A stretch of 64,000 nt of DNA, taken from a virus. Lineage: Duplodnaviria; Heunggongvirae; Uroviricota; Caudoviricetes. The translations under genes were made by a program, and so were the position numbers. The notes under the pieces are model-generated. The model did not search any database and was not told where the DNA came from. It worked only from the letters and a program-made list of their open reading frames with translations. The stretch is from the IMG/VR virus record IMGVR_UViG_2909314774_000001. The stretch is one strand, 5' to 3'. Below, in pieces: positions 11,797-56,000 of the stretch (position 1 is the stretch's first letter; every line of letters begins with the position of its first letter).

Positions 11797-12084
11797 ATGC
11801 TCATGACTGATTTCACCATTACCCCTAAAGCACAAAATGTATTTCTTGAATCATGGCTGGACTTGCCGGAAACAGAACAGCAAGAAATGGATCATGTGGA
11901 ATATGACGAGCAGGTAAGCACGCGATTCTTCCACTTTGAGGGCTGCGTTTACGACATTGCCGACTTCATGCGAGATGACCGCTTCCCTGAATGGCACGCA
12001 AGCTATCCACTAAACGCCTTCGCCATGCTGATGATCCGTGTGGATGATTCAGGGGATACCATCGACATCGGTCTGCTCCACTAA
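11797..12084 (+). CDS. small acidic early protein (about 95 aa)
   Basis: class-A palindrome 11767-11783; RBS GTGAGGA; conserved hairpin AGGCCACCAatgcTGGTGGCCT at 12094-12116 downstream. Confidence 0.45.
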   Translation: MLMTDFTITPKAQNVFLESWLDLPETEQQEMDHVEYDEQVSTRFFHFEGCVYDIADFMRDDRFPEWHASYPLNAFAMLMIRVDDSGDTIDIGLLH

Positions 12085-12134
12085 AGAGTAAGGCCACCAA
12101 TGCTGGTGGCCTTAAATGACCATCCTGTTTCCCG

Positions 12135-12210
12135 CAGGCTAAAACACCAACCTCTTACCTCCAGGCAACCGACAAACCCACCTGTTCCCGTCCGGCTACC
12201 GCAACTTTCC
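12135..12210 (+). repeat. second cluster of CAGGCTA/CCGGCTACCG-type direct repeats in a C-rich, G-poor segment
   Basis: gcaggctaaaacaccaacct / ccaggcaaccgacaaacccacct / ccggctaccgcaactttcc. Confidence 0.45.
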
Positions 12211-12287
12211 ACTTTGACGCCTTATTCGTACAACGATAATTAACACCAACAAGAAAACAATTTGTTATTTACGATAAGGAATTAATC

Positions 12288-12770
12288 ATGAATTTTATCG
12301 CTACTGTAAACGCACCCGCACATGGCAATATCGCTGTAACGTTCTCTGACATTGAAAAACGAGTACTTGGTGCATGGCGCGACAATGAGACGGTAGAACT
12401 GTCAGCACAAGAAAAATGCATTATTGCACGCGACATCATTGGCAATCGTCGTTACTCGCGGGTATTTGAGAAAGCGTATGTGGTAAATTCTGGATTCGGA
12501 ACGTTCGTCTTTCCGGTGCGCTCCGGGCGATTCTGCCAGTCCAAGCTGATTGAGTTCGCTACGCAGATTTCTGTCTGGATTAAAACTCAATCGTCGTTCA
12601 AATTTTCCGACGATGAAGCAGTATCGCAGGGGATGCGGATCGCCAACAATGCGATTAAATGCAAAAACATTACGTATACCGCTGGCGTTGACACATGGAA
12701 ACTGTTTTGCGCTAACTTTATGCTGAATGTATACGCAAGCAACCGCATCCACATCCTTGATGGCGTGTAA
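12288..12770 (+). CDS. hypothetical protein (160 aa) flanked by both direct-repeat families
   Basis: class-A palindrome 12254-12268; RBS AAGGAA; followed by hairpin AGGGCC agaaac GGCCCT. Confidence 0.55.
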   Translation: MNFIATVNAPAHGNIAVTFSDIEKRVLGAWRDNETVELSAQEKCIIARDIIGNRRYSRVFEKAYVVNSGFGTFVFPVRSGRFCQSKLIEFATQISVWIKTQSSFKFSDDEAVSQGMRIANNAIKCKNITYTAGVDTWKLFCANFMLNVYASNRIHILDGV

Positions 12771-12780
12771 CTGAGAAGAG

Positions 12781-12905
12781 GGCCAGAAACGGCCCTTTCT
12801 CTATAGCCACCAGCTGCCGCAGGGAAATTTTCAGAAACGGCGAGGAACGCATTCATGAGCCGACGGGAAACGGCCAGGATTTTTTCGGGAAACGGCTGCA
12901 TTCGC
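12781..12905 (+). repeat. second cluster of GAAACGGC direct repeats (four copies)
   Basis: ggccagaaacggccc / cagaaacggcgagg / cgggaaacggccagg / cgggaaacggctgc. Confidence 0.55.
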
Positions 12906-13386
12906 CTTTATATAGAAAAAACATCGGGAAGCTGGTGGAATCCAACCAGCGGTTGTCGGACAGGTGAGCGGGGAAAATTATGATGACTTTCGTCGCCTGA
13001 GACATCCAGATTTCTTTCGTAGCGTAATCACATATGTGATTAAGTGGTGTGATTATGTGAAAAATCACGCGCACATAATACGCGAGCGGATACGGAACAA
13101 AACAAAATGCCGATCCGCGCCGACAATTAAACGCGGATCACATAGCAAGAATAAAAGCCAATGATTAACCATACACCATAACGCAATATAACGCGATTTA
13201 AGCGCGTTAATGCGCTAAGTAATGGGTATGTACTGGTAAGGATATAAAAGCGCGTCTATGGCGTTATTTTGGCGCTTATTTTTATGTTGTTGGAGTGAGT
13301 CAAAGACAATAAAAAAAGCGCCATCATTGGCGCGTTATGGTGGAAGTATTGGAAACGAAAAAAGCGCCCATAGTGGGCGCTCGATT

Positions 13387-13617
13387 TTATTTATGTAAAC
13401 TGATTTCAAATCCCATTTCTACAAACGCTTTTAACATTAAAAATATATCAGCGTCATTCACGTCTGCTTTTTTTCGCTCCTGGTCGCTCAATAAGTCAAT
13501 TTTGCGCGTCGTTTCATCTATAAGCTCGACTGCGCGCCCAGCGTAACCAGCGATCCCAGCGATGCGATTAACAAAATATTCATTGCGCACGTTAACGCCA
13601 GCGATAAGAATAAACAT
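13387..13617 (-). CDS. hypothetical small protein (76 aa)
   Basis: ORF bracketed by two copies of hairpin GCGCCCATAGTGGGCGC (13363-13380 and 13634-13650). Confidence 0.4.
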   Translation of the reverse strand: MFILIAGVNVRNEYFVNRIAGIAGYAGRAVELIDETTRKIDLLSDQERKKADVNDADIFLMLKAFVEMGFEISLHK

Positions 13618-13664
13618 GATTAAGCTCCTTAAAAGCGCCCATAGTGGGCGCCAGATTCCATTAA

Positions 13665-14315
13665 TTACGCTTTGAAAGCATCAGCCAGATAGTTATAGAA
13701 ATCATTTTTAATAAAGCGATATTGCTGCGTACCAGCTTTTGCGCTTCCCATTCCTTTGACTTTCTCAACAAGTCCAAGACGTTCGCAAAGATTGATAAGC
13801 TGGTTGGCTTGAGTGTATCCTGCGTCTAATTTTATTTCGTTGGCTTTTTTCGCTTCATTCATTAAATCGAAAACAGCGCCATTTGTGAACGTCTCGATCT
13901 CGTCGTTAATCATATCGATTAATGCGAATACACGAGATCCGGACATATCAGCGACGGAATAAACACACTTTCCAGCTTTAATGGATTTAACCAGATAAAC
14001 CAGTTTTTCCAGAGAATAACTATTAGTCATTGCATCACGGAAAAATACTTCTGGCGCTTGTTTGCTTGCTTTGATCGCATAGTAGAAAACAGAGCATAAT
14101 TTTTCGTCTTCTACTGCGTTTACGACGTTGTTGATGAAGTAAGCAAGTTTCGTGGTCGCAGCTTGCATGTTTGCTTTGTCTGCTTTTGTGTGCGTACCAT
14201 TTTTATAATGTTCGTTATATGTTTGAGTTGCCAGATCTGCTTTTTCGCGCAGCTCGTCGGATACAATGGCAGCAGCTTCAATGATGGATTTTTTAGAAAT
14301 GATAATGTTAGCCAT
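13665..14315 (-). CDS. hypothetical protein (216 aa) in an AT-rich segment
   Basis: long ORF with RBS-like GGAAAA upstream of the start; visibly lower GC than surrounding genes. Confidence 0.55.
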   Translation of the reverse strand: MANIIISKKSIIEAAAIVSDELREKADLATQTYNEHYKNGTHTKADKANMQAATTKLAYFINNVVNAVEDEKLCSVFYYAIKASKQAPEVFFRDAMTNSYSLEKLVYLVKSIKAGKCVYSVADMSGSRVFALIDMINDEIETFTNGAVFDLMNEAKKANEIKLDAGYTQANQLINLCERLGLVEKVKGMGSAKAGTQQYRFIKNDFYNYLADAFKA

Positions 14316-14554
14316 GATAATTTTCCTTATGTAAATTTAAAATTTATTGTCGTTAGCGTCTTCGCTTTCGACGAGTTCAATTATCGATACGTGAAAAAAG
14401 ATTGCAAGTGTTTTTTTAAAATTTTTTGCAGGGATGAAAGTCCTAGAAATAAAAGCGAGATCGTCGAAGGTGTTCCCTAAATAAATAATCGAATCCGGCT
14501 TTCGACCTTATATATATTTAGGTTATTTGATTTGTAGATATAAAGAAGTGATGT

Positions 14555-14586
14555 GAAAAATAATAACCGGACTTAGCCGGTTATTA
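14555..14586 (-). terminator. intrinsic terminator for the leftward helicase operon (AATAACCGG / CCGGTTATT, T-run on minus strand)
   Basis: stem-loop just past the 14598 stop with an A-run on the plus strand. Confidence 0.6.
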
Positions 14587-14597
14587 ACCTTATAGAT

Positions 14598-14906
14598 TTA
14601 TTGAACAGACTCTACAGCCTTACGATTGGTGTCAAATAGCGCATCAACGAACTGTGCCGATGACTTGCTAGATTCGCAATCCAACATTGCCCGTTCTTCA
14701 TTTGCCACTTTCTTACACAGTTCCACATTCTCACCTATCGCTTTTCCTGCTTTTACGGCTGCCGAAAATTGATACATGCAAACTGATACATTCTGAGACG
14801 TTGAGCACACATCATTCATCAGCGATTGAATGACAGGCTTATAGTCCATTGCATTTGCCGCAACTGAGCAAAGTAAAAATAATGGTGGTAACAATATCGA
14901 TTTCAT
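14598..14906 (-). CDS. secreted/periplasmic Cys-containing small protein (signal-peptide-like N-terminus)
   Basis: MKSILLPPLFLLCSVAANA hydrophobic leader. Confidence 0.55.
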   Translation of the reverse strand: MKSILLPPLFLLCSVAANAMDYKPVIQSLMNDVCSTSQNVSVCMYQFSAAVKAGKAIGENVELCKKVANEERAMLDCESSKSSAQFVDALFDTNRKAVESVQ

Positions 14907-14909
14907 AAC

Positions 14910-15434
14910 TCAAAAAGGCAAAATTCGTTCAACCCAATCGAACAAAACAACTATTTTTCTACCGTTCTCGACACGTAGTGTAACCTGACAAGCATCTGCG
15001 CCTGCTGACACCCCCTCAATTTCACGGCCATCCGCCATGTACACCCTTATAGATTTGTTTGCTTTGTAGGCTTGGTTGCAAATTGCAAAAAAATCGCGGC
15101 GTGATGGCCGATTATCGACATAATCAGGGTGAACTGTTAGTCGACCTTTGAAATCGTGAGCGATACTGTCAACCACACCTGATTCAATTGTACTAATGCG
15201 TTCAAGTGGGAGCCTTATACGATTTTCTTTGTCAAAAGGGGCTGGGCAAAGGTCAACTTTGTTACGAGATGGCATGAGGCCATAAACGTACATGCAAAAC
15301 GCCTGGCCATCTTCGAGAGTGACCCTTACAGGAATTTGTTCTCTGCGCCAGAACATCAGTAGTTTTTCAACGTTAGTGTAATCTCGCGGCCAGAGTTCAG
15401 CTTGGATACCGTAGGTAATATCTTTGGTTGTCAT
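14910..15434 (-). CDS. hypothetical protein (about 175 aa from the internal Met MTTKDITYG)
   Basis: ORF-track frame; start chosen to abut the upstream lipoprotein gene. Confidence 0.45.
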   Translation of the reverse strand: MTTKDITYGIQAELWPRDYTNVEKLLMFWRREQIPVRVTLEDGQAFCMYVYGLMPSRNKVDLCPAPFDKENRIRLPLERISTIESGVVDSIAHDFKGRLTVHPDYVDNRPSRRDFFAICNQAYKANKSIRVYMADGREIEGVSAGADACQVTLRVENGRKIVVLFDWVERILPF

Positions 15435-15438
15435 GTCA

Positions 15439-15861
15439 TCACAGAGTTGTTGGCAGAATGTCGATGTCACCAGAATTGCTGGTGAACACCCTGAATGCTT
15501 TTGTGTCTCCATTCTTCAGAGTCGTTTCTCGCTCTTGACGAGCGGGGTTTAGAGCACATAAACCTGCACCTTCAAGAGATGCACCCACAATTAATTCTCC
15601 GGCATTTAAATGGAAAGTCGCTTTTTCGCCTGTAGCCAGTTTTGCGACAGTTTCGCCGTTGATGAAAATGGAAGCATCACATCCAGCTCCTACAAAACCT
15701 GTGTCTCTCATTACCACCAACGTAGCTGGCGCTGCGCTTTGATACTTGAACACTTTGGCCTGCGGTGCTGGTTTGGCGTCATGGATTGATATTGGGCGTG
15801 ATTGGCACGCGGCAAGCATCAACACTGGTAACGTTAGTAGAGGGAGAAGCGAGTATTTCAT
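15439..15861 (-). CDS. putative lipoprotein (lipobox LMLAAC after a signal peptide)
   Basis: MKYSLLPLLTLPVLMLAACQS: leader plus Cys lipobox. Confidence 0.6.
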   Translation of the reverse strand: MKYSLLPLLTLPVLMLAACQSRPISIHDAKPAPQAKVFKYQSAAPATLVVMRDTGFVGAGCDASIFINGETVAKLATGEKATFHLNAGELIVGASLEGAGLCALNPARQERETTLKNGDTKAFRVFTSNSGDIDILPTTL

Positions 15862-15929
15862 GATAGTTTTAGAACAGAAAGTGAACAGTATGGGAGACTT
15901 CATCTTTGTCTCCCTAATTGATAGCGTGA

Positions 15930-16208
15930 TTATTTTAATCTGCTTAATAGCGTTTCGAGATCTTCCTTTGTCATATTAGAGTTCTCATAGATACGCATGA
16001 TTTTCTCACGAGTCTTAGCGGAAGCCCCGACAGAAGATATAACCTTGTCAAAGTCGGCCATTGTCAATTGTTCCAGAATGGTATTTATGACTTCAGCCTT
16101 AGACATTTTGATATTTTTTTCTTTTAGTTTCACTTGAAACTTTCCAAGTTTGTCATTGGCCTTATCAGACAATGCTACCTGACAGTAAGTTGTTTTCTTT
16201 TCACTCAT
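15930..16208 (-). CDS. hypothetical small protein (92 aa)
   Basis: ORF tightly packed between the helicase and lipoprotein genes. Confidence 0.5.
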   Translation of the reverse strand: MSEKKTTYCQVALSDKANDKLGKFQVKLKEKNIKMSKAEVINTILEQLTMADFDKVISSVGASAKTREKIMRIYENSNMTKEDLETLLSRLK

Positions 16209-16210
16209 AA

Positions 16211-17770
16211 CTAATCTCGTTTCAGAACTCCAAAATCGAATGCTCCATCAATAGGTAATACACCTTCTGCAAAGCCAGGTGTGGTGTCGATGATGTGTTT
16301 TCGCTCATAAGAGTGAGACAACAGGTATTTGTTGCTAATGTCAATGAAATCAGTGATAAAACACACGTTTGCCTGATTTTTTTTGGCTCGTAAGCCACGA
16401 CCGACACGCTGTCTCATTTCAACTTCTGCTTTCCCACCACCAGCAAGAATGACCGCGCCCACGCTTGGCACATCAACACCGACATCCAGAATAGTCGAGC
16501 CTATTAAAACATCTATTTCGCCAGACGCTAAACTGTTCAGCTTTGCTTGCCTTGTCGCCTGGTTCGATTCCCCATAAATGAAGTCAACTCTAAGGCCGGA
16601 CTCCTTCATCATCTCCATCAGGATTTGCCCGTGGCGTTTAAGACGAACCAGAGTCATACAATTGAGAGAATGTTGCTTATAGAGCAATGCTTCGCGCACA
16701 ATGGCCTCGTTACGTCCCAAATTATACACGATCCCCAACTGATAAGCCTTTTGGTAGGCAGTGCTCATACCTACTCTAAAATTGAGGTGTTTGTTGGCAA
16801 GTTCTGCCTTGATTCTGACCTCGTCCGGTTTGTAGGCAACTTTATGATAAAGGAAGTACGGCTTTGCCAGAATGCCTCGATCAATCAGGTACTTTTCTGT
16901 GACTTTAATTTCAATTCGCCCGGCCACCGCCATCAGGCGCATGTTGGCTTCCGTCGAATCCTTCATGAACGGCGTGGCCGTAAGCGCCAGACGATAGTCT
17001 GCGTTCACACATAATCTGGCAATGTCATAGAAATTAGAGCCTGAAGACTCATGCGCTTCTTCCAGAATAAGCAGAGACACACTTGAAAGGAAGCGTTTCA
17101 CCAACTCCCGACGTTTGAGGTGGTAGCTCTTTTTATCTGGTGTTGCATCGCGTGGTGGTTCTTCGAGGAAACTTGCAAGAGTTTGAACTGTAGCGACGTT
17201 GATATGTCGTGATACCTGGAACTCACCCGAGCCAATGACTCCAACCTTTTGGTCTTTTAACCACGGTTCGCCATTTTCGGCGCGGTAGTCGATGGATCTC
17301 TGGAAGTTTTCGGCCATTTGAAACATCAGAACAGAGCGGGTTGTTAAAAATAATGTCATTCGACCGATACGTGCAGCTGCTTTGCAGGCAACGTTAGATT
17401 TCCCGCCACCAGTAGCGATCTGCGCAATCATCATTCCCTCTCGAACCAGTGTTTCCACAGTCTGATCCTGATACGCATAATCAGGATTGTATGGGAATGG
17501 GTTAACCGCCGGATTTGGTTTACCAAGCGCCGGGGCTTTGTCTTTGCGGATATGAACACATTTGATGCCCGCCTTGTTCAAGTTCGCCGCTACAGGCTTG
17601 GCAAAGCCAGCAGGGAACGAGTTTTTACTCCAGTTGAACATCGTGCTTGTGCCCTTCCAGTCGCCAGTCTCGACTTCGTAGCTCAACATTTGCTGCACCA
17701 GTTGCTTTACCTTGTCATCTGCGCCAGAAATAAGCGCATTTACTGCGTTAGATACAATCCGAACAGTCAT
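16211..17770 (-). CDS. superfamily-2 DNA/RNA helicase (DEAH-like)
   Basis: motif I ATGGGKS, motif II LEEAHE, motif III LTATP, motif VI VGRGLR. Confidence 0.75.
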   Translation of the reverse strand: MTVRIVSNAVNALISGADDKVKQLVQQMLSYEVETGDWKGTSTMFNWSKNSFPAGFAKPVAANLNKAGIKCVHIRKDKAPALGKPNPAVNPFPYNPDYAYQDQTVETLVREGMMIAQIATGGGKSNVACKAAARIGRMTLFLTTRSVLMFQMAENFQRSIDYRAENGEPWLKDQKVGVIGSGEFQVSRHINVATVQTLASFLEEPPRDATPDKKSYHLKRRELVKRFLSSVSLLILEEAHESSGSNFYDIARLCVNADYRLALTATPFMKDSTEANMRLMAVAGRIEIKVTEKYLIDRGILAKPYFLYHKVAYKPDEVRIKAELANKHLNFRVGMSTAYQKAYQLGIVYNLGRNEAIVREALLYKQHSLNCMTLVRLKRHGQILMEMMKESGLRVDFIYGESNQATRQAKLNSLASGEIDVLIGSTILDVGVDVPSVGAVILAGGGKAEVEMRQRVGRGLRAKKNQANVCFITDFIDISNKYLLSHSYERKHIIDTTPGFAEGVLPIDGAFDFGVLKRD

Positions 17771-17852
17771 AAACCTCTTTCCTTAGTGCCTTTTGTATGT
17801 TATTTGGCTATTATAATAAGTAAGTGATTACTTAGTGGATTGTAGCAATAAA

Positions 17853-18533
17853 ATGGATGTAAAAATCACGATTTTGCAGGTTGATGTTGCCAACCTTCGC
17901 CCGAATACCTGGAACACCAATTCGGTTGGTGCGCAGAATTTTGAAAAACTGAAAGGTTCTATCGAAAAATTGGGCTTTTTTAAGCCAATTTTGGCTCGTG
18001 AACTTGAAGATGGATTTTTTGAAATCCTCGGCGGCGAACATCGCTGGCGTGCTGCTATTGAGCAAGGAATTTCAACGGTTCCGGTGCTTTCTGTGGGCAA
18101 AATTAGCGATGTCGTAGCTAAACAGATGTCACTGGTGGACAACGAGCGATACGGTGAAGACGACCAAATCGCATTGCAACGCTTCATTGAAGAAATTCAG
18201 TCAGAACTTGACTATCAACTGTCTGAAATCGCCCCGTATGACGACGAAATCTCGATGGTTTTAGCAAAAGAGGCGGCAATCGACCTTGAAGCACTGGAGG
18301 CGTTGTCTCGTGGTAGTGATGAGCCTGTCGATACCGACAAACGAGAGAAAACCGAACGTGTGGGGGCGGAACATCAGACCATGCGCTTCAAAGTAACTTT
18401 CGATGCGTCAGATCGTGTTGCAGAAACCATAAAAAACATCATCAAAGAGCAGGCTATTAACACCGGTAATGAAATGGAGAACGCTGGTGAGGCTCTGGTG
18501 TGGCTGGTCGACTACTACAAGGAGCGTATGTAA
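17853..18533 (+). CDS. ParB/Srx-fold (ParB N-terminal-like) protein 1
   Basis: GGEHRWRAA motif resembling the ParB GERRWRA box; start at MDVKITIL preferred over the track start. Confidence 0.6.
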   Translation: MDVKITILQVDVANLRPNTWNTNSVGAQNFEKLKGSIEKLGFFKPILARELEDGFFEILGGEHRWRAAIEQGISTVPVLSVGKISDVVAKQMSLVDNERYGEDDQIALQRFIEEIQSELDYQLSEIAPYDDEISMVLAKEAAIDLEALEALSRGSDEPVDTDKREKTERVGAEHQTMRFKVTFDASDRVAETIKNIIKEQAINTGNEMENAGEALVWLVDYYKERM

Positions 18534-19201
18534 TGACCAAAAAGTTTGAAATCGTATATCGCGACCCGGCAGATCTTATTCCCTATGAGATGAATGCCAA
18601 AAAGCATGATGAACAGCAGATCCGAGATCTGGCCGCAGCCATTAAAAAGCGCGGATTTGACCAGCCAATTACGGTCGATAAGAACGACGTAATTATTACT
18701 GGCCACGGCCGCCGTGAGGCTGCAATTTTTGCTGGACTTGAGCGCGTGCCGGTTATTGTTCGCGATGATCTGAGTGATGACGAGGTACGTGCAAAGCGCC
18801 TTGAAGATAACCGACTTGCCAGCATTGATTACGATGCAATTAAGCTACAGAAAGAGCTTGAGTCGCTTGTTCTGGACGATATCGAGGTTTTCGGCTTCGA
18901 AGAGCGTGAGTTGAACGTTCTCGTTGGCAGTATGACAGAAGAAATGGACACCGACTCGCTAGTTATCGATCTTGGCGAAGAAACTAAACGACAGAAGGAT
19001 GAACACACCGAGATCAGTCGTGAAGTTGCAGCGGAAGAAGTACGTGTTGTCGACGTATTGGGCTTTAAAACGCTCCCTGCTGGCTCTGCCATTGTTGTTG
19101 GTGATTTGCTTGCCCATATGGAAGAAATGACGGGAGAAAGCGGGGTAGACGCATTTGTGGCATATGCGGAGAAGATCTCTTCCGGGGAGATGGCTGCATG
19201 A
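18533..19201 (+). CDS. ParB/Srx-fold (ParB N-terminal-like) protein 2
   Basis: ITGHGRREAA motif; start overlaps the previous stop (TAATG). Confidence 0.6.
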   Translation: MTKKFEIVYRDPADLIPYEMNAKKHDEQQIRDLAAAIKKRGFDQPITVDKNDVIITGHGRREAAIFAGLERVPVIVRDDLSDDEVRAKRLEDNRLASIDYDAIKLQKELESLVLDDIEVFGFEERELNVLVGSMTEEMDTDSLVIDLGEETKRQKDEHTEISREVAAEEVRVVDVLGFKTLPAGSAIVVGDLLAHMEEMTGESGVDAFVAYAEKISSGEMAA

Positions 19202-19863
19202 GCAAATACATCATCAACGTATCGTTTCAGACACGCGTAAATAAAACCACGCGCACGTTGGAAATCGCTGAGTCGTTCGGGCTTGGCCTGGACGAAAAAG
19301 AGTGGACGCTTTACGACAATCTGGAGCTGGAAGTGAAGCAGGGCGATGTGGTGTACATCACCGGCCAATCCGGTTCCGGCAAATCCGTTGTGCTGCGCGA
19401 GTTGCAACGACAGATGAAGGATGAAGGGCTGTCTGTAGCCTCCATCGATGATTTTACCTTCGATAATGAGGTTAACGTCATCGATCAGTTGGGCAAAACG
19501 ACCAGTGATGCGCTTGGGTTGTTATCTATGGCTGGTCTGAACGATGCATATCTGTTTGTTCGCAAGCCTTCTGAAATGTCAGACGGCCAGAAATATCGTC
19601 TCAAGATTGCCAAACTGATTGAGTCAGGCGCTAAAGTATGGGCTGCTGACGAGTTCGGCGCTGTTCTCGACCGTGTAACCGCTCAGGTTGTGGCGTCTAA
19701 CCTCCAGCGTGCCGCTCGAAAGGTTGGTGCGACGGTAATGGTGGCGACGACTCACGAAGACCTGAAGAACGCGCTGCGCCCTGATATGCAGATCACCAAG
19801 CACTACAAAGAACGCGTGAAGGTGGAATATCACAATGGTAGTCATGATGAGGTCCATTCATGA
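19198..19863 (+). CDS. soluble ABC-type ATPase
   Basis: Walker A GQSGSGKS, signature-like MSDGQ, Walker B VWAADEF, H-loop TTHE; translationally coupled to neighbours. Confidence 0.65.
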   Translation: MSKYIINVSFQTRVNKTTRTLEIAESFGLGLDEKEWTLYDNLELEVKQGDVVYITGQSGSGKSVVLRELQRQMKDEGLSVASIDDFTFDNEVNVIDQLGKTTSDALGLLSMAGLNDAYLFVRKPSEMSDGQKYRLKIAKLIESGAKVWAADEFGAVLDRVTAQVVASNLQRAARKVGATVMVATTHEDLKNALRPDMQITKHYKERVKVEYHNGSHDEVHS

Positions 19864-20750
19864 CGGACATCATCATTAAACGCTACCGCCCTGAAGAGTT
19901 TCCGCGTCATCTGGACTTTCTGGAGCGAATGACTGTTACAAAGGGAACTGTAGAGGACTGGCACGCTCTTAAGTCGCTTCACTACAAAACAGACGGCAAA
20001 CCTTTCGCGCCAACTTACTATCGCTGCGAACTTGATGACCGTCTGGTGGGCGTCGTGGTTATGGCTTACCCGAAACTACTGTTGGCACCTCGCCACCGCA
20101 TGTTTCCTAAGTTGAAACCAACCACTAATACCACCGTGGCTAACCAGTACTGGGGTCGGTACGTGAATAACAACTTTGCGGTGATCAGTCGCTCAGTTGT
20201 GGATACTCAGTATCGTGGCGTAGGCGTCTCTTATCGAATGATTAACCTGGTTAGCAGGATGCATGACCGGCCAATCATTGAGATCCAGTCCTCGATGAGC
20301 AAATACAATCCCTTCGCCATGAAAGCAGGGTTTAAGTTCATCCGCCCTGAGCGACCGAAGAGCTATGAAAGTGCACTGCGTGTATTCCAGCGCCATTTCC
20401 GTTCCGACCCGGGTGATAACGAGGCGATCGTCAAAGAGTTGTTCGCAATGAGCGAGTCTCGTCGTCGCCGTGCACTGCGTGATCTGGTAGCGGACTACCA
20501 CAAGAACAGTTCCCTGGCAAAAGCTGGGCGGAATCGTGGCACGACGATTCAGGACATTGCCGACAGTCTGGTGGACGAGGCCAGCATTGTGAAGCTGCTC
20601 AAGGACATTCACACCCTGAGCTTTACGTCTCCGTTGTATGGTGTGTACCGAAACCCTGACTTTGGTCGTCGGCTGCCTGACACGCTGCCACTGCTGGCAT
20701 TCGACAAACAACCTTTGGATAAACCGTTAGAAATTGCTTTACCGGCATAA
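19860..20750 (+). CDS. GNAT-like acyltransferase-fold protein with C-terminal extension
   Basis: motif-A-like VDTQYRGVGVSYRM and NPFAMKAGFKFI. Confidence 0.45.
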   Translation: MTDIIIKRYRPEEFPRHLDFLERMTVTKGTVEDWHALKSLHYKTDGKPFAPTYYRCELDDRLVGVVVMAYPKLLLAPRHRMFPKLKPTTNTTVANQYWGRYVNNNFAVISRSVVDTQYRGVGVSYRMINLVSRMHDRPIIEIQSSMSKYNPFAMKAGFKFIRPERPKSYESALRVFQRHFRSDPGDNEAIVKELFAMSESRRRRALRDLVADYHKNSSLAKAGRNRGTTIQDIADSLVDEASIVKLLKDIHTLSFTSPLYGVYRNPDFGRRLPDTLPLLAFDKQPLDKPLEIALPA

Positions 20751-53815: not shown

Positions 53816-54174
53816 TGTCCATGAAAATGGGTGACCTAGCAAAGCGCAAAGAGCCTGATGCACCGGCTAAGAACACAACTCCTTTGCGCCAACCAGTCAG
53901 ACCACAGGGACGCCCGACTCGTGGCAAAGAGAAAATTAAAAGCCGCACAATGTCACTGGAGGACGAATACTTCGAACTGCTGGAGATGATGAAGTTCATC
54001 CCTCGCTTCGAGAAATTCACCCGCTCTGATGTGATTCGTGCTGCTATTTTCCATCTTGCGGAGAAGACACCGCAGGAAATCGAGGACATCGTGAAACTTA
54101 ACGAGGCGATCACAGCTGCCGATGTCACGATGCGTACCGATGAAATTAAACGCGAGTTGATGAAGAAAGGGTGA
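53815..54174 (+). CDS. ParG-like small DNA-binding partner (putative RHH)
   Basis: 119-aa ORF translationally coupled to parA-like gene; basic N-terminal tail. Confidence 0.5.
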   Translation: MSMKMGDLAKRKEPDAPAKNTTPLRQPVRPQGRPTRGKEKIKSRTMSLEDEYFELLEMMKFIPRFEKFTRSDVIRAAIFHLAEKTPQEIEDIVKLNEAITAADVTMRTDEIKRELMKKG

Positions 54175-54177
54175 TTA

Positions 54178-54200
54178 TATTGGGCGTTTGTTACGCCCAA
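54178..54200. terminator. hairpin ATTGGGCG tttgtta CGCCCAAT
   Basis: perfect 8-bp stem between the partition genes and the KAP gene; no clear T-run. Confidence 0.45.
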
Positions 54201-54225
54201 TATATGAGTTGAAGGATAGACACCA

Positions 54226-55932
54226 ATGGAATCGATAGAAGTATTTTTAAAAAATTTTTTGGACTCAGATCATCGGGTTGCTGTCATAAAAGGAAATTGG
54301 GGAGTAGGTAAAACGCATTATTGGAATAGCTTTTATACTAAACATTCTAAAAAATTAGATTTTAATGCATATTCATATGTTTCTTTGTTTGGAATAAATT
54401 CTATTGGAGACATTAAAAAAGCTCTTTATCATTGTGCCACACCAATTAATGAAAAGAAATATAAAGAACTGATTTTATCTGAAACGGATCGAACTATGAT
54501 TCGTTATAGAAATGGGTTTTGGGGATGGTTGAAATACAACTCCTTGTCAAAATTTTTAATACATTTTGGAAAGAACGATTTTTTTGGGTTCAAAACTGAT
54601 AATCTGCTGTCATCTCTTGAGTATAAATTTGTTAATAATTATTTGGTTTGCATTGATGATATTGAACGAAAAGGTAGTGCGCTAGAAATTAAAGAGATTA
54701 TGGGGGTAATTGATGAGTTGGCAAGAAGAAAAAATTGCAAGGTTGTTCTAATATTAAATGAAGATAACTTACATGAAGAAACTGCACAACAACAGTTTTT
54801 AGAGTATAGAGAAAAAATAATTGATGTGGAAATAAAATACGATCCCACGCCTGAGAAAAACTTAAGAAAAGTTTTTTATGAGACTGACCCTGATTTTCTT
54901 TTGTTAAAAAACCTAGTAAATGATTTAAACATCAAAAACATTAGAATATTAAATAAAATAAAATCATCTCTAGTTATATTTAGAGATGTGCTAAAGTTAG
55001 CAGAGGATAAGGTTAGAGAAAGTTTTATTAATAGATTGGTCTTATTTTCAGTGGTTTACTATTTTGGTGTTCCTAGCGTTGATTATGCTTCATTTAAGGA
55101 GTCAATCAAAAATATACATGCATTCGACTATATGTTAGATGATAAAGATGAAAAGGAAGAAGTTAACTCTGTATATTCATTTGTTAATAGCCTTGATGTT
55201 ATTTATGAACGAGCAGAAAGTGCTTTCGATGATGATATAGATTTTTACCTTAAGAACGGTTATGTTTCTTCTGAAAGCAATATTCTAAATATAATAAAAG
55301 AAAAAAATGAACAATATAGAGATAATAGGGTTTTATGTGAGGTTTATAAAATTTGGGATGTTTTTAGAAACTCTTTTAAAGATAATGAATCAGAGTTTAT
55401 TTTTCAAATTGAGCGCGTAATTAACGATAGTCTGTTGCGTATACCAATTGGACAGTTCGTAGGTTTAATAAATGTCCTAATTAAATTGGATAGAGATTGT
55501 AATAATATTATAGAGGCATATGCAGATGCTTTTGTTAATAAAGAAAATGCGTATGCTACATTTAATTCTTTGCGAGTAGAGATCTTCGGAAATGAAGAAT
55601 TAGGTTTCAGAATTGAAAAAAAATTGAAAGATAGAAATCCAGATGACTATAACTTAGATAAAATTATAAAAAAAATAGCTGGTGGAAGATTTAACCATAG
55701 TGATGTGAATATTCTTAACAGTTTTTCTAAAGATGATTACGTAAACTGGATATTATCCTGTGATCAGGATGCTTTGAATTTAGTAGAAGAGACTATGCTC
55801 AAGTTCAAGGGTATGCAACACCCGACAGACGAACAGAAGAGCATCACTGATAAAGCAATAGAAGCTTTGGAGGAAGTTGCTTCAAAATCAACACTTAATA
55901 AGCTGCGTGTTAATAAAATACTCAATCATTAA
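54226..55932 (+). CDS. KAP-family P-loop NTPase
   Basis: Walker A GNWGVGKTHYW (the G.WG.GK(S/T) form typical of KAP NTPases), Walker B LVCIDDIER; strongly AT-rich gene. Confidence 0.75.
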   Translation: MESIEVFLKNFLDSDHRVAVIKGNWGVGKTHYWNSFYTKHSKKLDFNAYSYVSLFGINSIGDIKKALYHCATPINEKKYKELILSETDRTMIRYRNGFWGWLKYNSLSKFLIHFGKNDFFGFKTDNLLSSLEYKFVNNYLVCIDDIERKGSALEIKEIMGVIDELARRKNCKVVLILNEDNLHEETAQQQFLEYREKIIDVEIKYDPTPEKNLRKVFYETDPDFLLLKNLVNDLNIKNIRILNKIKSSLVIFRDVLKLAEDKVRESFINRLVLFSVVYYFGVPSVDYASFKESIKNIHAFDYMLDDKDEKEEVNSVYSFVNSLDVIYERAESAFDDDIDFYLKNGYVSSESNILNIIKEKNEQYRDNRVLCEVYKIWDVFRNSFKDNESEFIFQIERVINDSLLRIPIGQFVGLINVLIKLDRDCNNIIEAYADAFVNKENAYATFNSLRVEIFGNEELGFRIEKKLKDRNPDDYNLDKIIKKIAGGRFNHSDVNILNSFSKDDYVNWILSCDQDALNLVEETMLKFKGMQHPTDEQKSITDKAIEALEEVASKSTLNKLRVNKILNH

Positions 55933-55940
55933 TAGATTAT

Positions 55941-56000
55941 GACCTGCTTCCGTATGTATTTAATAAGTTACTTATTATTTGTATATACAGAAGCAGGTCT
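55941..56000. repeat. second copy of the large palindrome (GACCTGCTTCcGTATgTA ... AATAAGTTACTTATT ... TATATACAGAAGCAGGTC)
   Basis: shares arms and core with 21049-21106; followed by TTTTAAAG. Confidence 0.75.

What the first reader, a model, noticed from the sequence alone, without database searches (positions are those of the whole stretch)
14598..17770. Leftward operon led by an SF2 helicase and followed by a lipoprotein and a secreted protein
Five tightly packed minus-strand genes are transcribed from the divergent promoter region and end at terminator 14555-14586: a DEAH-like helicase (ATGGGKS, LEEAHE, LTATP, VGRGLR), a 92-aa protein, a lipoprotein (lipobox LAAC), a roughly 175-aa protein and a signal-peptide protein. 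A helicase co-transcribed with envelope-targeted small proteins is unusual; the lipoprotein and periplasmic protein are typical of superinfection-exclusion factors such as the receptor-blocking lipoproteins Llp and Cor, while the helicase could be replicative or part of a nucleic-acid-sensing function.
Basis: partly seen in the sequence, partly recalled or inferred. Interest (0 to 1): 0.5.

Follow-up and report, generated by a model that had tools for sequence, protein, structure and literature searches.

The report
Phage-plasmid helicase operon with FljA-like repressor
This is the conserved leftward helicase operon of a common SSU5/pHCM2/pMT1-type phage-plasmid; its overlooked 174-aa gene is a relative of the Salmonella flagellin translational repressor FljA, and the lipoprotein and secreted-protein genes around it are swappable cargo of untested function.

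Summary
Five tightly packed minus-strand genes (17770..14598) end at a real intrinsic terminator (14586..14561).

The window is an SSU5-like phage-plasmid, 98.8% identical to Escherichia phage CMS-2020a. Three of the five genes are backbone, each found in about 820-830 PLSDB plasmids:
- a UvsW/XPB-like SF2 helicase;
- a 92-aa protein of unknown function;

That third gene is an FljA-family protein: Pfam PF03614 E 2.5e-84, and 36% identity over the full length to genuine Salmonella FljA. Its model shows two tandem Sm/Hfq-like domains. It is kept under purifying selection even in plasmids of non-motile Klebsiella and Yersinia pestis, so flagellin mRNA cannot be its only target.

The lipoprotein (420 plasmids) and the secreted 102-aa protein (258 plasmids) are accessory. 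They occupy two variable slots beside the FljA-like gene, and related elements carry unrelated exported proteins there. Neither resembles Llp or Cor.

The superinfection-exclusion idea is therefore possible but unsupported. The helicase is an ordinary backbone gene. The interest is moderate and lies in the FljA-like RNA-binding protein and the cargo slots.

The parts
17771..17834 (.). 64-nt divergent control region between the helicase and the first ParB_N gene. It contains a palindromic ATTATAAT (17810-17817) and a 7-bp inverted repeat TAAGTAA-N4-TTACTTA (17817-17834).
   Evidence: The sequence was read. It is nearly invariant across SSU5, Cyrano, pMT1, two Klebsiella plasmids and a distant MAG. 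No canonical -35/-10 pair was found by the scan, so promoter and operator roles are inferred only.
16211..17770 (-). SF2 DNA helicase, 519 aa, UvsW/XPB-like; a backbone gene.
   Evidence: Pfam ResIII, DEAD and Helicase_C. PHROG 16 'DNA helicase', E 2e-93. PDB sequence hits to XPBII, Rad25 and T4 UvsW. About 822 enterobacterial plasmids carry it at 60% identity or more, plus 153 Acinetobacter plasmids at about 42%. Median dN/dS 0.018.
15930..16208 (-). 92-aa backbone protein, translationally coupled to the helicase. Possibly a ribbon-helix-helix protein; this is unproven.
   Evidence: PHROG 1466, unknown function. Found in 821 plasmids. The 2-nt gap after the helicase stop is kept in SSU5, pMT1 and Klebsiella. 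hhalign against CopG gives only E 0.014, in register. No Pfam or PDB hit.
15439..15903 (-). Accessory lipoprotein: 154 aa from the ATG with a Shine-Dalgarno sequence, or 140 aa from the ATG at 15861. Lipobox LMLAAC; residue +2 is Gln, which predicts outer-membrane sorting. All-beta, weakly DUF2846-like.
   Evidence: Lipobox and hydrophobic core. Cys invariant in 11 homologues. PHROG 890 'lipoprotein'. DUF2846 scores 18 bits, below the 34.3 cut-off. Present in only 420 plasmids. Absent, inverted or replaced in relatives.
14910..15434 (-). FljA-family protein, 174 aa: two tandem Sm/Hfq-like domains, putative RNA-binding post-transcriptional repressor; a backbone gene.
14598..14906 (-). Accessory secreted (periplasmic) protein, 102 aa. 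Signal peptide with ANA|M cleavage site; the mature 83 aa carry four Cys.
   Evidence: PHROG 9536, unknown function. Homologues occur only on contigs of phage-plasmid size. Present in 258 plasmids. It is a precise cassette between the FljA-like stop codon and the conserved terminator.
14551..14586 (-). Rho-independent terminator of the leftward operon: stem 14586..14561, then a T-run.
   Evidence: z = -4.3. Conserved directly after the FljA-like gene, or after the inserted cassette, in all five aligned lineages.

Best explanation
The region is the conserved leftward gene cluster of an SSU5/pHCM2/pMT1-type phage-plasmid, and it carries two cargo insertions.

**Backbone (shown).** The order is helicase, then the 92-aa protein, then the FljA-like protein, then a conserved terminator. 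This cluster lies back-to-back with the ParB_N/ParB_N/ABC-ATPase genes that precede terminase and portal.

**Helicase (inferred).** It is a UvsW/XPB-like DNA helicase that serves the element's own DNA replication, recombination or packaging-linked DNA processing.

**FljA-like protein (inferred).** It is built from two Sm/Hfq-like domains. Like its homologue FljA, it probably works after transcription, binding an mRNA leader to block translation and destabilise the message. It is kept intact in plasmids of Klebsiella and Y. pestis, hosts that make no flagella. Its primary target is therefore more likely an mRNA of the phage-plasmid itself, or a conserved host mRNA, than fliC. Cross-repression of flagellin in motile hosts remains possible.

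**Cargo (position shown, function inferred).** Two slots, one between the 92-aa gene and the FljA-like gene and one between the FljA-like gene and the terminator, collect genes for exported proteins. Here these are an outer-membrane lipoprotein and a Cys-rich periplasmic protein, whose translation is coupled to the FljA-like gene. They probably alter the lysogen's envelope as lysogenic-conversion functions. Exclusion of incoming phage is one option among several.
For: **Identity of the element.** The region is 98.8% identical to phage CMS-2020a and 79% to SSU5. In 5,426 complete E. coli genomes, all 248 matches lie on plasmids.

**Backbone versus cargo.** PLSDB record counts are about 822 for the helicase, 821 for p92, 830 for the FljA-like gene, 420 for the lipoprotein and 258 for sec102. 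A deeply diverged Klebsiella element, whose FljA-like protein is only 35% identical, has helicase, a small protein, the FljA-like gene and p216 with no cargo at all.

**Slot variability.** The slots hold at least five unrelated exported proteins across relatives, including an inverted copy of the same lipoprotein family. sec102 is a precise cassette.

**FljA homology and fold.** The motifs ITYGxxAE(V/I)WPRDY, PSRRD(F/Y)F and FDWVxRI are shared with genuine FljA. FljA acts by preventing fliC mRNA translation (PMC2652032, citing Bonifield and Hughes 2003 and Yamamoto and Kutsukake 2006).

**Hosts and selection.** Of the 830 plasmids, 341 are from Klebsiella and 62 from Yersinia. Median dN/dS is 0.11 overall and 0.25 within Klebsiella.

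**Helicase family.** Its position is conserved in Acinetobacter phage-plasmids.

**Coupling and terminator.**
Against: - No expression data, transcription start site or RNA target is available, so the operon structure is inferred from spacing alone.
- In Klebsiella and Cyrano an inverted or divergent gene separates the FljA-like gene from the helicase. Co-transcription with the helicase is therefore not universal.
- No sequence resembling the E. coli fliC leader was found in the window beyond chance. This neither supports nor identifies a self-target.
- The helicase sits beside the packaging module and not among recognisable replication genes, so its exact process is unknown.
- The lipoprotein model has low confidence (pLDDT 56).
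- The nesting of FljA among phage-plasmid clades rests on a midpoint-rooted neighbour-joining tree without support values.
Confidence: 0.55

Rival explanations
1. First reader's model. The lipoprotein and the periplasmic protein are superinfection-exclusion factors that block an outer-membrane receptor, as Llp and Cor do. The helicase would be a co-expressed replicative or sensing function.
For: Both proteins carry export signals. They are accessory and sit in hot spots that recurrently hold exported proteins. That pattern is typical of moron or lysogenic-conversion genes. The +2 residue is Gln, not Asp, which predicts outer-membrane sorting under the established Lol-avoidance rule.
Against: - No similarity to any Llp, Cor or other annotated exclusion family. 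PHROGs returns only 'lipoprotein' and 'unknown' families.
- At 121 mature residues, the protein is about twice the length of Llp or Cor as I recall them (not checked here).
- The family also occurs on non-phage plasmids of Cupriavidus, Xanthomonas and Vibrio.
- No receptor or phenotype data exist. To my knowledge SSU5 adsorbs to LPS core, not to a protein receptor.
Confidence: 0.2
2. The FljA-like protein is a true flagellin repressor. The phage-plasmid would use it for lysogenic conversion: silencing host fliC to save energy, avoid TLR5 recognition or exclude flagellotropic phages. The exported proteins would be unrelated passengers.
For: Full-length homology to FljA, with the N-terminal and C-terminal signature motifs conserved. 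Plasmid-borne FljA homologues such as the one on pBSSB1 do repress fliC translation (PMC2652032). Many hosts are motile: Escherichia 228, Enterobacter 92 and Salmonella 60 plasmids.
Against: - The gene is kept intact under purifying selection in 341 Klebsiella and 62 Y. pestis plasmids, whose hosts lack functional flagella.
- No flagellin gene is linked to it, and none exists anywhere in the window.
- Identity to FljA is only 36%.
- No published report of a motility effect of SSU5, pHCM2 or pLF82 plasmids was found.
Confidence: 0.25
3. The FljA-like protein is a general Hfq-like RNA chaperone, or a Rho- or protein-binding Sm-fold factor comparable to YaeO/Rof. It would not be a sequence-specific translational repressor.
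Against: The Hfq Pfam score of 19.1 is below the 27 cut-off. The architecture is a tandem repeat and not a single Sm domain. The only characterised family member, FljA, is a specific repressor (PMC2652032). The family is tiny and specialised, with 30 clusters among 1.84 billion representatives.
Confidence: 0.1
4. The helicase, together with the divergent ParB_N/ParB_N/ABC-ATPase genes, is a defence or anti-defence (DNA modification or restriction-like) module and not a replication function.
For: PADLOC gives partial hits to PbeA (5e-23), Type IV restriction and DpdF for the helicase, and to mad3/mad8 and MTase_II for the neighbours. TIGR04095 dnd_restrict_1 gives 3.9e-16.
Against: All hits cover only the generic SF2 or P-loop cores and fall far below family cut-offs, for example 59 bits against a 600-bit cut-off. 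The module is strictly conserved backbone next to terminase in every relative, including Acinetobacter. Defence cargo is normally variable.
Confidence: 0.1

Closest known systems
FljA, phase-1 flagellin repressor of Salmonella enterica (Pfam PF03614), and its plasmid and E. coli homologues such as fljA(z66) on pBSSB1
   Same: Same Pfam family over the full length, a similar size (174 vs 179 aa), 36% identity, and shared N-terminal (I[TS]YGxxAE[VI]WPRDY) and C-terminal (FDWVxRI) motifs. By inference, the same biochemical mode: binding an mRNA and repressing its translation.
   Different: It is not linked to a flagellin gene or an invertase. It is a backbone gene of a phage-plasmid family. It is conserved in non-flagellated hosts and flanked by exported-protein cargo. 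Its target is unknown.
Hfq / Sm-like proteins
   Different: There are two Sm-like domains in one chain. The sequence is below the Pfam Hfq threshold, and the protein carries an extra conserved N-terminal arm.
T4 UvsW and archaeal/eukaryotic XPB (Rad25) SF2 helicases
   Same: A ResIII/DEAD plus Helicase_C core with motifs I, II (DEAH-like EEAHE), III and VI. Significant sequence matches to the 2oca, 6p4f and 2fwr chains. It is annotated 'UvsW helicase' in phage Cyrano.
   Different: The matches cover only the core (about residues 225-485). Residues 1-95 have no assigned family. It is far below the XPB equivalog cut-off, at 49.9 vs 610 bits.
Phage receptor-blocking lipoproteins Llp (T5) and Cor (phi80, N15, T1-like)
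   Same: A phage-encoded lipoprotein with a classical lipobox, probably sorted to the outer membrane, and accessory in distribution.
   Different: No sequence or detectable fold similarity. It is larger, with weak DUF2846-like beta-sandwich features, and has no known receptor partner.
Moron or cargo hot spots of temperate phages and phage-plasmids (variable plasmid-type gene repertoires; Pfeifer et al. 2021, PMC7969092)
   Same: Fixed insertion points within a conserved backbone hold different small genes in different lineages, with precise cassette boundaries.
   Different: In the dozen lineages sampled here the cargo is mostly, though not only, exported proteins (some slots also hold 179-204-aa proteins without export signals). 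It is wired into the backbone operon by translational coupling and does not carry its own promoter and terminator.

Membership tests
FljA / Flag1_repress (PF03614) | Score above the Pfam gathering threshold over the whole profile | tested here: met
   281.7 bits against a cut-off of 24, profile positions 1-170 of 170, E 2.5e-84.
FljA / Flag1_repress (PF03614) | Full-length similarity to the experimentally characterised Salmonella FljA | tested here: met
   BLASTP against P0081 (named 'phase 1 flagellin gene repressor FljA'): 36% identity over 171 aa, E 1e-37.
FljA / Flag1_repress (PF03614) | Genetic linkage to an alternative flagellin gene (fljB type), usually with an invertase | tested here: not met
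   The neighbours are the lipoprotein, the secreted protein and p216. tblastn with FliC finds no flagellin in the 64-kb window, best E 0.15. Flagellin genes are likewise absent from the SSU5, pMT1 and Klebsiella loci.
FljA / Flag1_repress (PF03614) | Binds the fliC mRNA leader and represses its translation | not testable with these tools
   This needs an experiment. Indirectly, the gene is conserved in hosts without flagella, and no fliC-leader-like sequence occurs in the window.
Sm/Hfq-like fold | N-terminal helix plus a five-stranded bent beta-sheet that superposes on Hfq | tested here: met
Hfq family (PF17209) | Pfam gathering score | tested here: not met
   19.1 bits against a cut-off of 27.
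SF2 helicase (DEAD/DEAH, ResIII + Helicase_C) | Both RecA-like domains above Pfam thresholds, and motifs I, II, III and VI present | tested here: met
   ResIII 55 bits, DEAD 53.7 bits, Helicase_C 49.7 bits. GGGKS, EEAHE, TATP and VGRGLR are visible in the translation.
UvsW / XPB subfamilies | Equivalog-level score or full-length similarity | tested here: inconclusive
   The XPB equivalog scores 49.9 bits against 610. PDB matches to UvsW (E 4.8e-8) and XPBII (E 2.4e-12) cover only the core. PHROG 16 'DNA helicase' gives 2e-93.
Bacterial lipoprotein (signal peptidase II substrate) | Positively charged n-region, hydrophobic h-region, and a lipobox [LVI][ASTVI][GAS]C | tested here: met
   MKYSLLPLLTLPVLMLAAC, with a KD hydrophobicity peak of 2.41. 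The Cys is invariant in 11 homologues whose lipoboxes are LSAC, LAAC, ITAC and LTGC. LipoP and SignalP were not available.
Llp/Cor superinfection-exclusion lipoproteins | Sequence or structural homology to Llp or Cor | tested here: not met
Llp/Cor superinfection-exclusion lipoproteins | Blocks a phage receptor, giving an exclusion phenotype | not testable with these tools
   This requires adsorption and plating-efficiency assays.
DUF2846 (PF11008) | Pfam gathering score | tested here: not met
   17.8-18.1 bits against a cut-off of 34.3, and the match is partial, profile positions 4-53 of 92.
Sec-type secreted protein (sec102) | N-terminal signal peptide with an AXA cleavage site | tested here: met
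   MKSILLPPLFLLCSVAANA|M, with a KD peak of 2.42. The Klebsiella cassette at the same position also begins with a signal peptide. SignalP was not run.
Known anti-phage defence systems (PADLOC) | Match to a defence-protein model beyond shared generic domains | tested here: not met
   Only the helicase core matches, to PbeA, mREase_IV and DpdF. The other four proteins have no hit.
Ribbon-helix-helix regulators (for the 92-aa protein) | Detectable profile similarity to RHH proteins | tested here: inconclusive
   hhalign against CopG gives E 0.014 over 33 columns in register, against Arc E 0.27. No Pfam hit.
SSU5/pHCM2/pMT1-type phage-plasmids | Nucleotide identity and synteny with recognised members | tested here: met
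   98.8% identity to CMS-2020a and 79% to SSU5. The gene order matches SSU5, pMT1 and pLF82/Cyrano. ParA, terminase and portal are present in the window.

The most novel reading that the evidence does not exclude
The FljA-like tandem-Sm protein could be a previously unrecognised post-transcriptional master regulator of SSU5-type phage-plasmids, for example holding lytic or late mRNAs untranslated during plasmid-state lysogeny. On this reading, the Salmonella phase-variation repressor FljA was domesticated from this phage-plasmid gene. In a midpoint-rooted tree FljA nests among phage-plasmid-borne clades, and it lies closer to the main clade than three other phage-plasmid clades do. In motile hosts the phage-plasmid protein might still cross-repress flagellin, coupling carriage of the element to loss of motility and to resistance against flagellotropic phages.
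Probability: 0.2. Interest if true: 0.7.

Novelty: new variant of a known kind. Interest (0 to 1): 0.4.

Why it matters
SSU5/pHCM2/pMT1-type phage-plasmids are common in clinical Enterobacterales. About 4.6% of complete E. coli genomes carry one, and they include the Y. pestis pMT1 backbone. How they are regulated is essentially unstudied.

- **A candidate regulator.** A conserved FljA-type RNA-binding protein in their backbone offers a concrete, testable candidate for post-transcriptional control of the element, or of host surface structures.
- **An evolutionary source.** It also suggests where the classical flagellar phase-variation repressor came from.
- **Places to look for conversion genes.** The two cargo slots flanking it are defined locations to search for envelope-modifying lysogenic-conversion genes.

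If none of this proves true, the region is an ordinary, already sequenced backbone operon.

Tried and rejected
1. **fliC leader in the window.** I looked for a fliC-leader-like sequence as a possible FljA-like target. blastn-short of the MG1655 fliC upstream region gave only chance-level 10-12-mers. The one 12-mer lying in the leader (TGAGCCGACGGG, window 12856) is absent from SSU5, pMT1 and Klebsiella relatives, so it was rejected as chance.
3. **PDB sequence and profile searches.** Nothing useful for the FljA-like protein, p92, the lipoprotein or sec102.
4. **NCBIfam.** No hits for four of the five proteins.
5. **PADLOC.** Only generic helicase-core hits, so a defence-system reading was rejected.
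6. **Rfam, 12000-18600.** One sub-threshold chance hit, so no known ncRNA.
7. **Literature.** Searches linking SSU5, pHCM2 or phage-plasmids with fljA or flagellin returned nothing relevant. The primary FljA mechanism papers were not held.
8. **afdb50 fold search.** The library was unavailable.
9. **Genome-contig scan with the helicase.** It returned only 6 loci. The distribution figures therefore rest on PLSDB tblastn counts.
10. **Acinetobacter small protein.** The 92-aa protein next to the Acinetobacter helicase shows no detectable homology to p92.
11. **Promoter scan.** No convincing promoter was found for the operon.

Full report
**1. The observation**

The minus strand between 17770 and 14598 carries five consecutive ORFs, exactly as described.
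- A 519-aa SF2 helicase, 17770..16211. Its translation contains GGGKS, EEAHE, TATP and VGRGLR.
- A 92-aa protein, 16208..15930.
- A lipoprotein ORF, 15903..15439, with lipobox LMLAAC.
- A 200-aa ORF, 15512..14910. Its functional start is the ATG at 15434, giving 174 aa (MTTKDITYG...).
- A 102-aa protein, 14906..14598, with an N-terminal signal peptide (…SVAANA|MDY).

The spacers between a stop codon and the next ATG are 2, 26, 4 and 3 nt. Only the helicase start and the longer lipoprotein start have clear Shine-Dalgarno sequences, so the remaining starts look translationally coupled.

A 10-bp GC-containing hairpin followed by a T-run lies at 14586..14561. It folds at -12.6 kcal/mol, z = -4.3 against shuffles. 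The same terminator follows the equivalent gene in SSU5, pMT1, Klebsiella and Cyrano.

All genes that could be tested are under purifying selection, with NG86 median dN/dS of 0.018 for the helicase, 0.08 for p92, 0.12 for the lipoprotein and 0.11 for the FljA-like gene; sec102 had no relative among the loci sampled. The one unverified element is the promoter: the scan finds no canonical site in the 64-nt divergent region.

**2. What the element is**

The region is 98.8% identical to Escherichia phage CMS-2020a and 79% to Salmonella phage SSU5. It shares gene order with SSU5, with pLF82/Cyrano and with Y. pestis pMT1. The rest of the window holds a ParA-like gene, terminase, portal and tail genes. 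It is therefore an SSU5/pHCM2/pMT1-type phage-plasmid.

Among 5,426 complete E. coli genomes, 248 carry the region, always on a plasmid. Of these, 94 have the full five-gene form.

**3. Backbone versus cargo**

tblastn against PLSDB finds each gene in this many plasmid records:

| Gene | Plasmid records |
|---|---|
| Helicase (60% identity or more) | about 822 |
| Helicase in Acinetobacter (about 42% identity) | 153 more |
| p92 | 821 |
| 174-aa FljA-like protein | 830 |
| Lipoprotein | 420 |
| 102-aa secreted protein (sec102) | 258 |

Mapping the genes onto 14 fetched loci shows a fixed order: helicase, p92, slot 1, FljA-like gene, slot 2, terminator, then the separately transcribed p216 gene. 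The contents of slot 1 vary by lineage.
- Window, SSU5, pMT1, Kluyvera and Buttiauxella: the DUF2846-like lipoprotein.
- A Klebsiella plasmid: a 28%-identical member of the same lipoprotein family, in the opposite orientation.
- Cyrano: a cytoplasmic 199-aa protein plus a divergent 266-aa lipoprotein.
- Two other lineages: secreted proteins of 196 aa and 118 aa.
- A distant MAG and a deeply diverged Klebsiella element: nothing.

Slot 2 holds sec102 in this window. An alignment shows it is a precise cassette between the FljA-like stop codon and the conserved sequence AAATCTATAAGG…terminator. A Klebsiella plasmid has a divergent signal-peptide protein at the same spot, and another lineage has a 127-aa secreted protein.

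The exported proteins are therefore interchangeable cargo. The helicase, p92 and the FljA-like protein are backbone.

**4. The overlooked gene**

The 174-aa protein matches Pfam PF03614, "repressor of phase-1 flagellin", over the entire profile (E 2.5e-84, 281.7 bits). It aligns end to end with genuine Salmonella FljA at 36% identity, E 1e-37. Shared motifs include the N-terminal I(T/S)YGxxAE(V/I)WPRDY, plus PSRRD(F/Y)F and FDWVxRI.

An exhaustive profile search of 1.84 billion cluster representatives finds only 30 clusters. These are the main phage-plasmid clade, Salmonella FljA, and several divergent clades on 104-112-kb contigs of Klebsiella, Providencia and Xenorhabdus. In a midpoint-rooted neighbour-joining tree, FljA nests among the phage-plasmid-borne clades. 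This is suggestive only, since the tree has no support values.

FljA is established as a post-transcriptional repressor that prevents fliC mRNA translation (PMC2652032, citing Bonifield and Hughes 2003 and Yamamoto and Kutsukake 2006).

The phage-plasmid homologue differs from FljA in three ways.
- It has no linked flagellin gene, and none occurs anywhere in the window.
- It is a backbone gene.
- It is maintained in 341 Klebsiella and 62 Yersinia (pMT1) plasmids, whose hosts are non-flagellated. dN/dS is 0.25 between two diverged Klebsiella copies.

So it very probably binds RNA, but fliC cannot be its only target and is probably not its primary one. I found no fliC-leader-like sequence in the window beyond chance. 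No paper connects these plasmids with fljA or motility.

**5. The helicase and p92**

The helicase has ResIII/DEAD and Helicase_C domains. It belongs to PHROG 16 'DNA helicase'. It matches XPBII, Rad25 and T4 UvsW chains over its core. It is far below the equivalog cut-offs for XPB and for Dnd-restriction helicases, and it hits PADLOC models only through the generic core.

It is 90-93% identical across enterobacterial genera. It also keeps its back-to-back position with the ParB_N/ParB_N/ABC-ATPase genes, just upstream of terminase, in Acinetobacter phage-plasmids. It is an ordinary backbone DNA-metabolism enzyme and does not look like a sensor.

p92 has no family assignment. A weak in-register similarity to CopG (hhalign E 0.014) hints at a ribbon-helix-helix fold, but this is inconclusive.

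The 64-nt divergent region is nearly invariant across relatives. It contains a palindromic ATTATAAT and a 7-bp inverted repeat. These are candidates for a shared promoter and operator.

**6. The exported proteins**

- **Lipoprotein.** The lipobox Cys is invariant in 11 homologues. Residue +2 is Gln or Ser, which predicts outer-membrane sorting under the Lol-avoidance rule (established knowledge). The protein is all-beta and weakly DUF2846-like, at 18 bits against a cut-off of 34. Its model was poor (pLDDT 56) and only generic beta-sandwich matches appeared.
- **sec102.** It is an orphan family restricted to these phage-plasmids. The mature part carries four Cys, consistent with periplasmic disulfides.
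- **Comparison with exclusion factors.** Neither protein resembles Llp, Cor or any annotated exclusion protein.

Their accessory, slot-bound distribution fits lysogenic-conversion cargo. Superinfection exclusion is one possible function, but nothing here supports it specifically.

**7. Verdict**

The best-supported explanation is a conserved phage-plasmid backbone operon of a UvsW/XPB-like helicase, a small protein and an FljA-type tandem-Sm RNA-binding repressor, ending at a conserved terminator. Two hot spots beside the FljA-like gene collect exported-protein cargo.

The sequences are already in public databases, and SSU5 and pHCM2 annotations already carry the 'repressor of phase 1 flagellin' label. 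What appears unreported, within the papers I could search, is the following:
- the Sm/Hfq-like tandem architecture;
- the backbone status of the gene in non-motile hosts;
- its possible relation to the origin of FljA;
- the exported-protein slots.

Interest is moderate, at 0.4. The most novel reading still open is that this is a phage-plasmid post-transcriptional master regulator from which FljA was domesticated. I give that about 0.2 probability, and it would deserve about 0.7 interest if true.

Noticed in passing
window 12786-12896 (within the non-coding stretch 12771-13664): Four direct copies of GAAACGGC lie within 110 nt. The window holds 7 copies in total against 2.15 expected by chance. 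This iteron-like cluster sits in an unusually long non-coding region next to the operon.
   Followed up: partly
window 13360-13394 and 13631-13665: Two copies of a strong hairpin, AAAAGCGCCCATAGTGGGCGC, each with flanking A/T runs. The second lies directly after the stop of the 216-aa backbone gene (13665..14315, minus strand) and looks like its terminator. That gene is therefore a separate transcription unit from the five-gene operon.
   Followed up: partly
window 17771-17834: The 64-nt helicase/ParB intergenic region is almost invariant from E. coli to a distant MAG. It contains a palindromic ATTATAAT (17810-17817) and the inverted repeat TAAGTAA-N4-TTACTTA (17817-17834), which abuts the ParB start codon. 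This may be a shared divergent promoter and operator.
   Followed up: partly
window 17835-20750 (+): Two ParB_N-domain proteins, an ABC-type ATPase and a 296-aa protein (PHROG 886) form a module divergent from the helicase and immediately upstream of terminase and portal. The helicase/ParB/ABC arrangement is conserved even in Acinetobacter baumannii phage-plasmids (locus L018). Its function is unknown.
   Followed up: partly
window 54001-56000; ORF 54226-55932 (+): A sharp GC trough (31% against about 47% elsewhere) covers a 568-aa KAP-family P-loop NTPase. It is probably recently acquired cargo, possibly related to defence.
   Followed up: partly
L006 5399-5836 (Klebsiella pneumoniae plasmid NZ_CP096816.1): In Klebsiella phage-plasmids, a 28%-identical member of the same lipoprotein family occupies the same slot in the opposite orientation. 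The FljA-like gene there must have its own promoter.
   Followed up: partly
window 13665-14315 (-): The 216-aa protein (PHROG 1513, no Pfam, NCBIfam or PADLOC hit) is as conserved as the backbone genes. It always follows the FljA-like gene, even in the most diverged Klebsiella element (L015). Its function is unknown.
   Followed up: no
Proteins P0081, P0099, P0103, P0104: In a midpoint-rooted NJ tree, chromosomal Salmonella FljA nests among clades carried on contigs of phage-plasmid size. This hints that FljA was recruited from a phage-plasmid gene. NCBI names the Providencia members 'RNA chaperone Hfq'.
   Followed up: partly
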